Shown here piece by piece: positions 3,001-9,000 of a stretch of DNA of 28,008 bases; positions within the stretch are counted from its first letter, which is position 1; every line of letters starts with the position of its first letter. A program made the position numbers. Origin of the DNA: Candidatus Eiseniibacteriota bacterium (lineage in GTDB: Bacteria > Eisenbacteria > RBG-16-71-46); assembly GCA_031370785.1 (NCBI GenBank), contig JANMQY010000119.1, forward strand, positions 1 through 28,008, given 5' to 3'.

Positions 3001-6000
3001 TGCTCGAGAGGCGCACCGCATCGAAGAACGTGAACCCGGCACGCTTGTGCGTGTCGTGGAAGATCGCGCCCGGCGCGACCTGGCACACGCCGCCTCCGGC
3101 GTCGAAGTACTGGTCGGGGCGTGCGACGTTCTCTTCGAGCGCCGCGCCCGCCGCCACCACCTTGAACGTCGAGCCCGGCTCGTACTGGTCGGTGAACGGC
3201 CCGTTGCGCGCCTTGCCCGGCGCCAGGTGCGGCACGCTGGCCGCCGCGAGCACCTCACCGCTCTGCGGATCCACGAACACCGCGAATCCGCGCACCGCGC
3301 GCAGCGTGTCCACCGCGCGTGCCAGGTGGGTCTCGAGAATGCTCTGCAGGTCGGCGTCGATGGTCAACACGACGTCGTCGCCGTCACTGGGACGGCGGCG
3401 CAGCCCGCGCGGCAGCGCGTGGGTGTGACCGCGGCCGTCGCGAAACAGCGTGGTCCATCCCGGCCGCCCGCCGAGCGTCTCGTCGAGCGCCAGCTCCAGC
3501 CCTTCGACGCCTCGATTGTCGGGATCGGTGCGACCGAGCAGCTCGCCCGCGGCCTTGCCGAGCAGGTACTCGCGATGGGTCTCGGGCGACAGATACAGGC
3601 CGCGCCGGCTCCAGTCCGCGACCTTCTGCGAGGCCTCGGGCGACACATTGCGCGCCACTACGAGGTAGCGCGGCCGCGCGGTGAACTCGCGATCGAGCCG
3701 CCTGGGATCGATCCTGAGCAGCTTCGCCAGATCGCGCGCGGTTCCGTGCGGATCCTTCATCTCGCGTGGCGCCGCAGCCACCGAGTAGGTCAACAGGTCG
3801 CGGGCGAGCTGGCGACCGTGACGATCCAGCAGATCGCCGCGCACCGGCTTGACCAGCACGCGCTGCTCCTGATTGCGCTCTGCGCGCTCGTCGTAGTAGG
3901 CATGCTGCACCAGCGACAGCCAGCCGATGCGCAGCCACAGGGCGACCAGCGCAAGCAATAGACCGGCCGCAGCCACCAGCACCCGACTCCTGCGCGTTTC
4001 CGTGTGGGCCAACTCCTTCCCTCCATGGAACGGCGGTTCACGCAAACCGCCGGGCCTTTCACTTGCGCGGTGCGGTGGTGCGGCCGGTCTTTTCCGGACG
4101 ACCCCGTCCTGGCTATCGTTCGATCAGTGCGCGCGGTCGCGTGCCGTAGCGTCAGGCACCAGTACGCGCGAAACCCTTTCCGCCAGCGCCAGCAGCGGAG
4201 CGGATTCTCCGCCGCGGCCATCGGCCCCGCCGTCCGCGAGATACTCGGCGGGAAGATTCACCACCTGCCGGGCGTCGGCCGGAGCCAGCCCCAGCTGTGC
4301 GGCCAGAGGCGCGAGCTCGGAGCGCGTGCCGCGCCGGTCCAGCTTCGCGTGCACGAACTCGAGGCGCGCCTTCGCGTGCACCAGCGCGGTGCGGTTCTGG
4401 TCCAGGTCAAGGCACAGCTCGGCGACGCGCGAGCTCTGCCACACCTCGACCAGCAGCATCGAGACCGCGATGCCCGCCACCAGCCACAATTCGGGTCGGA
4501 TCGCGCGCCCTTCGGACACACGCCATGACGGACGGTTGCGACGGGGTCCAGCGCTCATGCCGATTTCCTCCGGAAGGCGCGGAGCCGCGCGCTGCGTGCA
4601 CGCGGATTGCGGGCTTCCTCGTCGTGCCCTGGGGTCACGACCTTGCGGGTGATGATCTGCCACGGCCCCTCGGGAAGGCGCGGCTCGACGGGTGGCAGGC
4701 GTCGCGAGATGCGCTCGGGCGCTCCTCGCAGCGACTGCTTGATGCGGCGATCCTCGCCCGAGTGATAGGCGAGGGTCACGACGACACCGCCGGGACGCAT
4801 TGCCTCCGGCAGCCACTGGAGCGCGGCCTCGAGATCCTCGGCTTCGCCGTTGATCCAGATACGCAGCGCCTGGAATACCTGCGCGTAGCGCCGCGGATGG
4901 GACCGCCCGCCCAGCGCGCGATCCACCGTCGCGGCCAGCGCGCGGGTCGTGAGGAGCGCCCCGCGACGGGCTTCAGCGATGATGGCGCGCGCCAGGCGCG
5001 TGGCCCCGGCGAGATCTCCGTGCTCGCGCAGCACGCGGGTGAGCGTTTCCTCGTCGGTGCGTGCGAGTCGCGCGGCGGCGCTCTCGCCACGGGTCATGTC
5101 CATGCGCAGGTCGAGCGGACCGTCGCTCATGAAGCTCATGCCGCGCCCCGGATCGTCGATCTGCGCCGAGGACAGGCCCAGGTCGAACAGGGCACCCGCC
5201 AGGAGCTCTCCGCCCAGCGCGCGATGCGCGTCCGGGATCTCGCGAAACGTGGCGTGCGCGAAGTTCACGCGCCCTCCGAAGCGCTCGAGCCGCCGGCGCG
5301 CGAACGCGACCGAGCTCGAATCGCGGTCGGTGCCGAGCAGCCGTGCGCCGGGCTCGGCTTCGAGCAGCGCCTCGGCGTGTCCGCCGTCGCCGAGCGTCGC
5401 GTCGAGATACAGTCCCGCGCCGTTGCGCAGGAATCCCATGACCTCACGCAGCAGGACCGGTTCATGACGCGCGCTCACGGCCCGGCTCCGAGGGCAGCGT
5501 GCCCCCGAGCAGCTCCTCGGCGGAGGGCCAGCAGCGCAGGCGCGCCTCGCAACCCGCGAGCCGGAACAGGTCGCGCAGGTACTGCGAGAGCCCGCACACC
5601 ACGCAGCCTCCCGAGTGAGCCTCGAAGCGCGAGAGCGACTGCACCAGCAGCGGCACCAGCCGGTAGTCGATGTGACGGACCTGGGAGCAGTCGAGCAGCA
5701 ACTGGCTCACACCGCGCGCGGCGAGGTCTTCGATCGAGCGCTCGAGGCGGCGTACCGCGACCGCATCGATCCAGCCGCGCAGCGAGAGCAGCGCGATGCG
5801 TCCGGTCGGACGCTCGTGCAGCTCGAGACGCGCCGAGGCGCCGGGCATGCCGTGGCTCAGCTCGAGGTGCAGCGACATCGACAGGCGATCGACTCCGACC
5901 GTCATGCTCACTCCCGTCCCAGCACTTCGTCCGCCAGGGTCTCGAGCTGGCCCGAGGCCTCACGCACCACCGACTTGAGGCGCTCGGGATTCCAGATCTC

Positions 6001-9000
6001 AATGCGGTCCACCTGTCCGTGCAGGACGGCTTCCTTGCCGATCTCTGCACGGTGCATCAGTGCCGGTGGAATCGTGATGCGTCCCTGCGCATCCACCGTC
6101 ACCTTGCAAGCGTCCATCAGGAACGCGCGCGCGAACGCGCGACCCCGTCGGTCGCCCATCGGAATGCGACGCAGCCGGTCCTCGACGCGCTTCCAGTCGT
6201 CCGTGGAATACAGTGCGAGACAACCCTCGAAGCCGGCGACCAGATGAAATGCGACCAGCGCTTTGCGCGACGCATCGCGACGCATCGAGGCGGGCACGCT
6301 GAGTCGTCCCTTGTGATCGACTGCGTAGGTCTCGGTGCCGTAGAAGGACGCCATCGCGCGATTACCCCATCTCCCCATCGATCGCCATTTGTCACCACAA
6401 TTCCCCACTTCTCCCCACCGCGGGCCGGACCATACCCCTCGCGCGAGGCGCGCTCCAAACGAAATCGTAGTGCAGGAGAGAATTATTCGTGGCGTGCGTA
6501 CTGCACGCACGTGCACGGTGGCACGGAGGGATCAGCGCGCGAGGCGCGGCGTGTCGAAGCCTTTCCAGTCGATGCGATAGAAGCTGTAGACCACTTGGCC
6601 CGGGCGGGCGATTCCGAGGTTGGGCACCGTGGCACTACCCAGCGGTGTGAGTCGCGCCGCGTGCGGGCTGCGCTTCAACAGCGCGTACGCGGTCGGTGCG
6701 CGATCGACCAGGAACTCCGGACGCGCGAACGACGCGAAGTCGAGGTTCGCCACCATGTCCTCGGGCGATTCACGTTTGAGCAGCGGCACGACCTGCGGGC
6801 TGACCAGCCCTGCGAGATCCAGCACGCGTCGCCCACTGAAGTAGCCGATTGCGCCGATGTCGGGCGCCGCGATGATCGCATCCGGCGCGGTGTGGTCGTG
6901 GAACCACCTCCCCCATGGAATCAGGCTGCGCTCGAAACCGGCGGTGAAGCTGCGCACCTGCGGCAGGACCGCGCCGCGATAGACCGCGAGGTTCTGCGCG
7001 ATGACCAGTGCCGCGACCAGCGCGCCGAGCACCGCCGCGCGTCGCGATTTCGCGGGCGCGATCTCGACCGCCGGATCGCTCAGGTCGCGCGCTCCGAGCA
7101 ACCAGCGTTCCGCCGCGCCCCACGACAGCCACGCGAGTACCGGGAGCAGCGGCAGCAGGTAGCGCGACAGCACCGGCACACCGCGCGCAACGTACAGCGC
7201 CGGCACTCCGATCAGCCATGCGCCGGGCACCAGCCGCTGCGCGATCATGCGGCCCGGCCACAGCTTTCGCCCGCCGAAGATCAGCGCGGCCAGCAGCAGG
7301 GCGGCGAGCACGCCGTCGGTCGCGCCGATGATCTTGATCTGACGCCACAGCTCGTCGAGTCGATAGTCGAGCCCGGTGCCGCCCGCGGTCTTCGCCGCCA
7401 GGGTCTGAGGCCAGAACGTTCCGAAGTATACGCGTGCGAACAGCAGCCAGGCGCCGTAGATCGCGGTCGGTGGGAGGATCCCGAACACCAGTCGGCGAAG
7501 TCCCTCGCGACTCTCGGTGTCGATGATGAGAAACACGCCCCACAGAATCAGAAGGAACACCGCCTCGGGCCGGGTGAGCGCGGCCAGCGCCCAAAGCGCG
7601 CCGGTACGCACCGGACGCGAGCCCCACTGGCGGCCTTCGGTGAACGCGACGAACCCCGCGAGGGTCAGCGCGACCGCGAGCGGCGTCTCCATTCCCGAGA
7701 GCGACCAGCGCAGCATCCAGGCGTGGGCGGCCCACGCCACCGTCGCCGCGGCGCGCAGCTCCGGCAGGTGCACGCTCCTGCGCATCAGCTGCAGGAAGAG
7801 CACGACTGAGGCCAGCGTCGCGACCAGGCCGAGCACTCGCGCGACGAACAGGCCGTCCAGGCCGAACGCGATCCCGTCCGCGATCAGCGTCACCCAAAGC
7901 GGACTGGTGCAGCCGTAGATGCGCTCGCCGACATTGAACACCAGCCCCTGCCCTGCCGCGAGGTTGCGCGCGTACTGCAGGTGGATGAATGTGTCGTCGG
8001 TGAGGTAACCGCGCACCGGCCACATGAGTGCCGCAGCCAGCATCAGCGCGACCACCAGCGCGATCTTCTCGACCCGGGTCAGCGGCCCGTTCTGGTTGAG
8101 GATCACGTTCGGCCCGTGGTGAGATCGTCGAGCACCGACGCGAGGCGCGCGGCGAGTGCGGGGCGCGCATGCGTGGCCACCCACTCCGGACGCGAGGGCG
8201 CGGGACGCGCCCCCTCCTTCCACGCCAGGTAGCGGCGCTCGATCGCGGCGGCGAGCGCCGTGCGATCTCCGGGCGCGACCAGCTCGCCGCCCGCGCGTCG
8301 CACCATCTCTCCCGCCTCGTCCCCTTCCTCGAGCACGCCGAGAATCGGACGACCGGCGTCCAGGTACTCGTAGAGCTTTCCCGGCACCATGGTCGGATAG
8401 CCGCGCGGCTTCCACAGCAGCAGGACGTCCGCGCCGCGCTGCAGCGCTCGCGACTCGGCGTGGGGGCGCGCCCCCAGGAACGTCACGATCCCGGTCAGGC
8501 CGAGCGCAGTCGCACGATCGGCATACTCCGCCTGATAGGGCCCGACCATCCGCGCGCGCACCCGCCGCCGTGCTTCCGGGCGGCGCGCCAGCAGCTCGTG
8601 CAGCGCTTCGAGAAACACCTCGGTGTCGCTCATCTGCGAGAGCGTGCCGGTAAAGACGAGCGTGAAGGCTGCCGGGTCCGCCGCGACTTCGTCCGCGCCG
8701 GGCGCATCGGGCTCGAATCCGTTGGGCAGGTGAATCGCACGTCGTGGCAGCAGATGTGCGCCCGAACGCGCGCCCAGCGTGTCGAGGTGCGTGCGCGAAG
8801 CGGTCAGCACCCGATCGGCGCCCTCGAGCACCGCGCGCTCGGCGCGCGCGTGGCGCGCACGATGCCAGCCGGTCGGAGGGTTTCGGAAATGGAGGCCGAC
8901 CCACGGATCGCGGAAGTCCGCGACCCACGGAAGTCCGAAGCGCCGCTTGAGCGCGAACCCGGCGAGGTGCACGCTGTCGGGCGGCGAGGTGGTGAGCACC

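What a model noticed while it worked through the whole genome (the two positions that open the first line are those of the whole stretch)
5908..6520. Conserved LexA box upstream of the mraZ-dcw promoter: cell division genes wired into the SOS regulon, in an activator po [...]
A perfect LexA-type palindrome (TGCAC-N4-GTGCA, C127:6502-6515) lies roughly 20-50 nt upstream of the -35 element of the mraZ/dcw promoter in this genome and throughout the family. At lexA, recA and dinB the same box covers the -35/-10 spacer; here it lies wholly upstream, which suggests that intact LexA sustains dcw transcription and its cleavage lowers it: an SOS division brake in a genome without SulA.
Evidence so far: Third-best site genome-wide for a matrix built from relatives' lexA/tnp/dinB boxes. 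Present in 27 of 28 mraZ loci, the 28th cut by the contig end; box-to--35 distance 21-48 nt in 25 of 27 (two mis-parsed, call 39). The box+promoter+MraZ-repeat pattern hit 14 of 14 family relatives, control pattern 1 of 14; only 3 of 26 outside the family. MraZ's own GTGGG repeats lie separately downstream. No SulA.
(Added by a program. Inside this text positions count along the whole contig: contig position 1 is position 1 of the stretch shown here. "Call 12" and the like, gene names such as g00115 and contig names such as C1 are that model's own, and its searches are not shown. The text may have been shortened before it was handed on; [...] marks where a part breaks off. The agent that wrote the report below was given it as the finding of a first reader that could run no searches.)

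Follow-up and report, generated by a model that had tools for sequence, protein, structure and literature searches.

The report
LexA site beside cell-division promoter
In one order of uncultured bacteria, the DNA-damage regulator LexA has a near-perfectly conserved binding site just outside the promoter of the cell-division genes, so damage probably tunes division there, but whether it turns these genes down or up is not settled.

Summary
The palindrome at 6502-6515 is real and almost certainly a LexA operator. The same motif lies in the -35/-10 spacer of 36 of 36 lexA promoters of this order (probably Ca. Eisenbacteria), marks dinB, radical-SAM and transposase genes, and changes with LexA's recognition helix. 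Upstream of mraZ it is perfect in 61 of 62 family genomes (one cut by a contig end) and present in 10 of 10 of a sister family, so it is not family-specific. It never overlaps the promoter: 43 nt upstream of -35 here, 21-96 overall. No hidden promoter, terminator or second operator explains it, and it stays with mraZ when the upstream gene is divergent. The activator reading is only partly supported: spacing shows no significant helical phase across 32 genera, and the promoter is near-consensus. Sign: positive about 40%, negative or insulating about 40%. Precedents: a LexA-bound site upstream of mraZ in gut Firmicutes, SOS boxes at the E. coli dcw head, LexA activation of whiB2 in M. tuberculosis. 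The scan noted a LexA-type box at mraZ once before in another genome (unchecked). New variant of a known kind.

The parts
6502..6515 (.). LexA operator, TGCAC-N4-GTGCA palindrome, centred about 86 nt upstream of the predicted transcription start
   Evidence: start site inferred from the -10 element
6480..6488 (.). A/T-rich patch between box and -35; weakly conserved 24-27 nt upstream of -35, possibly a distal UP-like subsite (inference)
   Evidence: column information content
6459..6466 (-). T-rich tract abutting -35 (UP-like; a terminator U-tract only in a few genera)
6453..6458 (-). predicted -35 element TTGGAG (TTGAC.. in 49 of 61 family genomes)
6429..6434 (-). predicted -10 element TATGGT
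6383..6418 (-). MraZ-type direct repeats, GTGG-like at 10-nt period (three clear, one degenerate), downstream of -10
   Evidence: sequence; repeat definition from bioRxiv 10.1101/2022.02.09.479790 passages
5908..6354 (-). mraZ, 148 aa
   Evidence: TIGR00242 above its cut-off
5462..5911 (-). STAS-domain gene between mraZ and rsmH
   Evidence: Pfam STAS; present in 25 of 25 family loci
4555..5478 (-). rsmH (mraW)
   Evidence: TIGR00006
4124..4558 (-). ftsL-like gene, by position and one moderately hydrophobic segment; no Pfam or NCBIfam match
   Evidence: identity is inference
1871..4045 (-). ftsI-type class B penicillin-binding protein (open frame; true start inside it)
   Evidence: SpoVD/FtsI-like models, below their cut-offs
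396..1874 (-). murE; the cluster runs on past the contig end at position 1
6532..8106 (-). upstream co-directional membrane glycosyltransferase-like gene; its stop codon is 16 nt before the box
   Evidence: weak NCBIfam matches

Best explanation
The palindrome is a high-affinity operator for this order's single cleavable LexA, kept at the head of the mraZ-STAS-rsmH-ftsL-ftsI-murE cluster since the common ancestor of two families. LexA does not occlude this promoter as it does at lexA, dinB and recA; it sits outside the polymerase footprint (centre about -63 to -93 in the family) and modulates it. The most likely sign is positive: intact LexA helps keep dcw transcription high, and RecA-triggered cleavage lowers the supply of FtsL/FtsI and delays division, with MraZ autorepression as a separate input downstream. 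Because spacing is not strictly phased, the effect is more likely architectural (bending, insulation, counter-silencing) than a fixed contact with the polymerase alpha subunit. Shown: motif, position, conservation, link to mraZ, intact LexA cleavage and catalytic motifs. Inferred: binding (about 0.93), an effect on the mraZ promoter (about 0.75), positive sign (about 0.55 of that).
For: Box in the spacer of 36 of 36 lexA promoters in families f1-f3. Other exact copies precede DUF6504-dinB, radical-SAM and IS200-like genes. The motif tracks the recognition helix: STNG.R-type LexA goes with TG(C/A)AC-N4-GT(G/T)CA, while LexAs of another clade have CGAAC-N4-GTTCG, and one genome with both LexA types has one motif at each gene. 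Perfect box upstream of mraZ in 61 of 62 family genomes, 10 of 10 in f3 with 0-2 mismatches, and 1 mismatch in G083 of another order whose lexA has the same motif. Never in the spacer or at the start site at mraZ in 72 genomes. No hidden sigma-70 promoter over the box on either strand in 34 loci (best 10.3 against a minimum of 12.2 for lexA promoters). The box stays with mraZ across three different upstream neighbours. Positive regulation of division genes by LexA is reported for whiB2 (PMC3381160) and for whiB, ssgA, divIVA, ftsH (PMC11157053). Lowering mraZ-operon transcription arrests division through FtsL in B. subtilis. No SulA, and no short protein with a clear membrane segment among the frames listed downstream of this genome's canonical boxes.
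Against: No binding or expression data. No significant helical phase per genus (box to -35: R=0.15, p=0.48; box to -10: R=0.21, p=0.26); eight genera sit at 36-40 nt, out of step with the 33 and 43 peaks. Near-consensus -35 in 49 of 61. LexA is a repressor at every other conserved site whose geometry I could read. The E. coli SOS boxes at the dcw head are described as repressing (PMC3265435). Upstream LexA sites without effect are reported in Leptospira and M. tuberculosis. Family f2 (0 of 3) lacks the box although its lexA uses the same motif. In f3 the box is 14-50 nt from a divergent promoter that it could affect instead.
Confidence: 0.4

Rival explanations
1. Negative modulator from outside the core. 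LexA bound at -63 to -93 hinders wrapping of upstream DNA on polymerase, displaces an unknown activator, or stabilises MraZ repression. SOS then raises dcw expression (wall precursors for filament growth, recovery of septation, or an MraZ pulse).
For: LexA represses at all canonical sites. Steric interference needs no phase, matching. A strong essential promoter could tolerate only partial repression, which would favour an off-core site (inference). E. coli precedent of repressing boxes at the dcw head.
Against: No second operator within -330 to +500 in most loci (only G036, and weakly G030, have one at the start codon). No conserved motif beside the box that would mark an activator site. Box-to-MraZ-repeat distance is not phased (p about 0.1). 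A lone site this far upstream is unusual for a repressor (recalled).
Confidence: 0.27
2. Roadblock or insulator. LexA stops read-through from the upstream glycosyltransferase cluster into dcw, or separates the mraZ promoter from its neighbour; SOS removes the barrier.
For: In the family the box always lies after the upstream stop codon (0-86 nt; 337 in G002). A strong hairpin before the T-tract is found in only 2 of 31 genera (z below -2), and no terminator was called here. LexA pauses polymerase in vitro (PMC4132739 passage). A similar box lies in a tRNA-Lys leader, where it cannot occlude the promoter. No phase needed.
Against: In 8 of 10 f3 genomes the upstream gene is a divergent methyltransferase, with its own strong promoter pointing away in 7 of them, so no upstream transcript should cross the box, yet it is perfect in 6 of the 8. 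Distance to -35 is tighter than distance to the stop codon.
Confidence: 0.15
3. LexA binds but does not regulate the sigma-70 mraZ promoter. The site serves an undetected alternative-sigma promoter, a small RNA, or chromosome architecture.
For: Binding without regulation is reported. My promoter matrix covers only sigma-70-type promoters.
Against: No conserved columns around the box beyond 1-2 flanking bases. Near-invariant conservation at a constrained distance from one promoter implies selection tied to it.
Confidence: 0.12
4. Not a LexA site: another protein with the same motif, or an RNA hairpin (terminator stem).
For: The palindrome could fold as a 5-bp stem. Binding is untested.
Against: The stem letters are nearly invariant with no compensatory changes in 34 loci, flanks pair no more often than at lexA, and no conserved U-tract follows. 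Base preferences of the four inner positions match the lexA boxes. The second LexA-like hit in the genome is an AsnC/Lrp-type HTH protein.
Confidence: 0.05

Closest known systems
LexA site upstream of mraZ in gut Firmicutes (Cornish et al. 2014, PMC3998124; passages and supplementary rows read)
   Same: LexA box upstream of mraZ (125 nt before the gene in the tested case), bound in vitro by B. subtilis LexA; proposed SOS-division link.
   Different: Gram-positive motif, scattered metagenome sites of mixed score; position relative to the promoter and sign not given in what I read. Here the site is perfect and fixed across a family and its sister.
LexA activation of whiB2 in M. tuberculosis (Smollett et al. 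2012, PMC3381160; passages)
   Same: The logic proposed here: intact LexA sustains a gene needed for division, and DNA damage lowers it in a RecA-dependent way.
   Different: Target is a regulator, not the dcw operon; sign measured there, unmeasured here; that organism also has a LexA-repressed division inhibitor.
SOS boxes at the 5' end of the E. coli dcw cluster (as described in PMC3265435; passages)
   Same: LexA sites at the head of the dcw cluster.
   Different: Three boxes, described as repressing, in a genome with SulA; here one box, outside the promoter.
LexA-activated whiB, ssgA, divIVA, ftsH in Streptomyces mobaraensis (PMC11157053; section 3.4 read)
   Same: Direct binding plus lower transcript without LexA at division and differentiation genes.
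   Different: Not mraZ/dcw; site geometry not seen.
Myxococcus xanthus LexA box CTRHAMRYBYGTTCAGS (PMC9705874 passage); Fibrobacter succinogenes box (Mazon et al. 2004, recalled, not found in the library)
   Same: Same geometry and RYBY-type inner bases. From recall the Fibrobacter box is nearly this palindrome.
   Different: Right half is GTGCA here, a perfect palindrome; no link to mraZ in the Myxococcus paper (0 mentions).
DnaA at the B. subtilis ftsL (mraZ operon) promoter (PMC8203912 passage)
   Same: A replication or damage sensor bound at the promoter of the ftsL operon.
   Different: DnaA, not LexA; the review says no major effect on division timing has been shown.

Membership tests
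LexA operator (SOS box) | Palindrome matching the motif in the organism's own lexA promoter | tested here: met
   36 of 36 lexA promoters in f1-f3; base preferences match
LexA operator (SOS box) | Same motif at canonical SOS genes | tested here: met
   dinB, radical SAM, IS200-like; degenerate box (matrix score above 5) upstream of 23 of 30 recA loci fetched
LexA operator (SOS box) | Cognate LexA is a cleavable S24 repressor (Ala-Gly site, catalytic Ser and Lys) | tested here: met
   motifs present in this genome's LexA and in relatives
LexA operator (SOS box) | Direct, specific binding by LexA | not testable with these tools
   needs a gel-shift or ChIP experiment
Canonical LexA-repressed SOS promoter | Operator overlaps -35, spacer, -10 or the start site | tested here: not met
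   21-96 nt upstream of -35 in all 72 loci; no hidden promoter in the 34 tested
Canonical LexA-repressed SOS promoter | Induced by DNA damage, RecA-dependent | not testable with these tools
   only assembled RNA-library contigs available
Class I activator site (alpha-subunit contact) | Site upstream of -35, about -60 to -95 | tested here: met
   centre about -63 to -93 in the family; up to about -138 in f3
Class I activator site (alpha-subunit contact) | Helical phasing to the core promoter (feature recalled from CRP/FNR work) | tested here: inconclusive
   61 genomes: p=0.002, but kin are not independent; 32 genera: p=0.48; peaks at 33 and 43 agree, 36-40 do not
Class I activator site (alpha-subunit contact) | Weak core promoter that needs recruitment (recalled) | tested here: not met
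   TTGAC -35 in 49 of 61; this genome's own -35 (TTGGAG) is among the weaker ones
Intrinsic terminator | Hairpin with covarying stem followed by a U-tract | tested here: not met

The most novel reading that the evidence does not exclude
A whole bacterial order runs its DNA-damage division checkpoint with no dedicated inhibitor protein: LexA is a standing, phase-insensitive activator of the mraZ-ftsL-ftsI promoter, and its RecA-driven cleavage lets MraZ repression win and depletes FtsL. This would be direct LexA activation of the dcw operon itself, by an upstream architectural mechanism.
Probability: 0.25. Interest if true: 0.72.

Novelty: new variant of a known kind. Interest (0 to 1): 0.45.

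Why it matters
How bacteria without SulA or YneA-type inhibitors couple DNA damage to division is open for most phyla. Here the only cell-cycle member found in a small, clean SOS regulon is the dcw head promoter, and the operator is in a geometry that cannot work by ordinary occlusion. Seventy-two natural promoter variants with different spacings give a ready series for testing how LexA acts from upstream. It also defines a LexA motif and regulon for this lineage, for which my search found no paper. If the sign is negative or null, it remains a modest lineage-specific addition to the SOS regulon.

Tried and rejected
RNA evidence: 5 runs listed, all assembled contigs; 4 laid. Two hold the whole 6-kb stretch as one contig of a relative (395 differences), which may be DNA; they give no start, strand or level, so nothing is concluded. 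Hidden sigma-70 promoter over the box: none on either strand in 34 loci; generic scan found none at all, not even the real promoter. Box as terminator stem: rejected. Terminator between box and -35: strong in 2 of 31 genera only (g12, g23). Second operator for looping: not found as a conserved feature. Helical phasing: not significant in the first 24 family genomes, significant over 61 related genomes, not significant per genus; I report the per-genus figure because genomes within a genus share the spacing. Co-variation in other orders: 46 mraZ upstream regions read (3 + 23 + 20 of the roughly 85 with an mraZ match; one cut short). One has the same motif with the same geometry (G083). CGAAC-type boxes with 1 mismatch occur in G105 and G115 (2 of 5 in f11; 65 and 57 nt upstream of -35), G045 (132) and G152 (161). 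In the first set that was 3 of 29 against a shuffle mean of 0.3, maximum 3; in the second, 1 of 20. Suggestive only. TGCAC-type 1-mismatch hits in G105 and G119 are treated as chance. 'Family-specific': rejected. Literature: LexA+Eisenbacteria gave 0 papers; a motif-letter search was swamped by unrelated hits; the Fibrobacter motif could not be confirmed; PMC6015884 passages did not mention a LexA roadblock. No structure or complex prediction was run, since no protein-protein contact is claimed.
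Full report
Setting. The window is G000:C127:1-28008 of a 3.44-Mb, 68% G+C genome. Three of four near relatives found with MraZ are titled Ca. Eisenbacteria, the fourth Ca. Saccharimonadaceae; I take the lineage to be Eisenbacteria. On the minus strand a polysaccharide/glycosyltransferase cluster ends at 6532 and is followed by mraZ, a STAS gene, rsmH, an ftsL-like gene, an ftsI-type PBP and murE; the cluster is cut by the contig end.

Observation. TGCAC-GCAC-GTGCA is at 6502-6515, 16 nt after the upstream stop codon and 43 nt before the predicted -35 (TTGGAG-18-TATGGT); MraZ-type repeats follow the -10 at 6418-6383. 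The five exact copies in the genome are at lexA, two DUF6504-dinB units, mraZ and the 5' edge of tRNA-Lys(TTT). The count is near chance; the places are not.

Is it LexA's site? Of 39 lexA loci read in the first 41 genomes, all 36 in families f1-f3 carry the box starting 2-3 nt after the -35, and the three from other orders do not. In ten family genomes and parts of f3 and f2, 70 loci around exact copies were read; 58 not already known as lexA or mraZ were annotated. The recurrent neighbours are DUF6504-dinB, a radical-SAM gene and IS200-like transposases; many others look like chance hits. recA has a degenerate version over spacer and -10 in most f1 and f3 genomes (23 of 30 loci score above 5). 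In other orders the lexA box changes with the protein: STNG.R-helix LexAs have TG(C/A)AC-N4-GT(G/T)CA, the other clade has CGAAC-N4-GTTCG, and G045, which has both, has one motif at each gene. LexA here keeps its cleavage and catalytic motifs. The motif resembles the Myxococcus box (PMC9705874 passage) and, from recall only, the Fibrobacter box. I put LexA binding at about 0.93.

Conservation at mraZ. Perfect in 24 of 25 family genomes, the last cut inside the box, then 37 of 37 further family genomes. In sister family f3: 6 perfect, 3 with one mismatch, 1 with two, of 10. In f2: 0 of 3. In 46 genomes of other orders it is mostly missing; G083, whose lexA has the same motif, has a 1-mismatch box 60 nt upstream of -35, and four genomes have 1-mismatch CGAAC-type boxes at 57-161 nt. 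One f3 genome, G026, is unpublished; it adds one to the f3 counts and to the divergent-neighbour counts, and no conclusion rests on it alone.

Geometry. Box to -35 is 21-51 nt in the family (peaks 33, 36-37, 42-44) and 32-96 in f3. Spacing is tight within genera. Over 61 genomes a 10.5-bp phase is significant (p=0.002), but over 32 genera it is not (R=0.15, p=0.48; to the -10, R=0.21, p=0.26), and a smooth unimodal null reaches the family value in 33% of draws. No sigma-70-type promoter overlaps the box on either strand. The box is not a terminator stem, the gap is a strong hairpin in only 2 of 31 genera, and there is no conserved second operator. The core promoter is mostly near-consensus: TTGAC in 49 of 61, with a T-rich tract before it (mean 5.2 T in 8 nt against 2.0 at lexA).

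What the box belongs to. In the family the upstream gene is the co-directional glycosyltransferase. In 8 of 10 f3 genomes it is a divergent methyltransferase (Pfam-checked in 5). In 7 of these the divergent gene has its own TTGACG promoter starting 14-50 nt beyond the box, so the box lies between two back-to-back promoters and overlaps neither. In G030 the neighbour is a different co-directional gene; in G036 the contig ends within it. The box therefore travels with mraZ, and blocking read-through cannot be its general job. In f3 it could also touch the divergent promoter.

Mechanism. Occlusion is excluded by position. A fixed polymerase contact fits the distance but not the loose phase or the strong core promoter. 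What remains is modulation from upstream. I favour a positive effect (0.40 overall), for four reasons: repression has an easy route through the spacer that every canonical site uses and mraZ never does in 72 genomes; an essential operon suits a site that is occupied during growth; no SulA or obvious small inhibitor was found in the regulon (weak evidence); and reduced mraZ-operon transcription is known to stop division through FtsL. Negative modulation (0.27), insulation or roadblock (0.15) and binding without effect on this promoter (0.12) stay open. None of this is measured; the RNA data were uninformative.

Comparison with what is known. A LexA site upstream of mraZ, bound in vitro, was reported for gut Firmicutes (PMC3998124; passages and part of supplement file 2). 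Three repressing SOS boxes are described at the E. coli dcw head (PMC3265435; passages). LexA activation of a division gene with RecA-dependent decline after damage is reported for whiB2 (PMC3381160; passages), and LexA activation of whiB, ssgA, divIVA and ftsH in S. mobaraensis (PMC11157053; passages and section 3.4). So neither the LexA-mraZ link nor the activator logic is new. New, as far as nine answered searches of a library that lacks most subscription papers show: this lineage's regulon, and a single perfect operator fixed outside the dcw promoter across two families. An earlier scan note (e1-781350) reports a LexA-type box travelling with mraZ in another genome; I did not check it.

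Verdict. Observation confirmed and broader than stated; interpretation partly supported; new variant of a known kind; interest 0.45.

Noticed in passing
G000:C43:21604-21617, 5' edge of tRNA-Lys(TTT) c[21524,21599]; loci L339, L346, L352, L354: A LexA-type box abuts the 5' end of this tRNA in G000, G003, G017 (perfect) and G006, G013 (near-perfect), and lies in the leader in G007: 6 of the 21 family genomes with a match, two not read upstream or read at one copy only. It is well downstream of the likely promoter, so it could only act as a roadblock. Patchy, unexplained.
   Followed up: partly
window 5462-5911: STAS-domain gene between mraZ and rsmH: tblastn hit in 25 of 25 family loci, 3 of 3 f2, 1 of 10 f3 and G040; missing where rsmH follows mraZ directly. 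Already noted by the scan (e1-1221687).
   Followed up: partly
L184-L187 and other recA loci: In at least eight family genomes the RecA match stops near residue 198 inside a 580-820 aa open frame, which suggests an intein in recA.
   Followed up: no
f3 mraZ upstream regions (L069-L074, L033, L035): Two A-tracts about 25-30 nt apart with a conserved CACAACCAAGTA-like core lie between box and -35 in genera g26 and g28; possibly a bending element or a weak reverse promoter.
   Followed up: partly
G036 and G030 mraZ start codons (L027, L029): A second LexA-like box overlaps the mraZ start codon (scores 15.8 and 8.1), in the genus whose upstream box is degenerate.
   Followed up: no
G000:C108:8645 and matching sites in G007, G008, G027: An IS200-like (Y1) transposase gene right after lexA has its own LexA box.
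   Followed up: partly
G000:C146:4391: A weak box (score 7.2) sits in the canonical spacer position of a promoter before a 342-aa gene that reads like an NFACT/RqcH-type protein by eye; not scanned.
   Followed up: no
L100 (G012), L241 (G102), L023 (G023): In genera g12 and g23 a strong hairpin fills the gap between box and -35, so the T-tract before -35 doubles as a terminator tail.
   Followed up: partly
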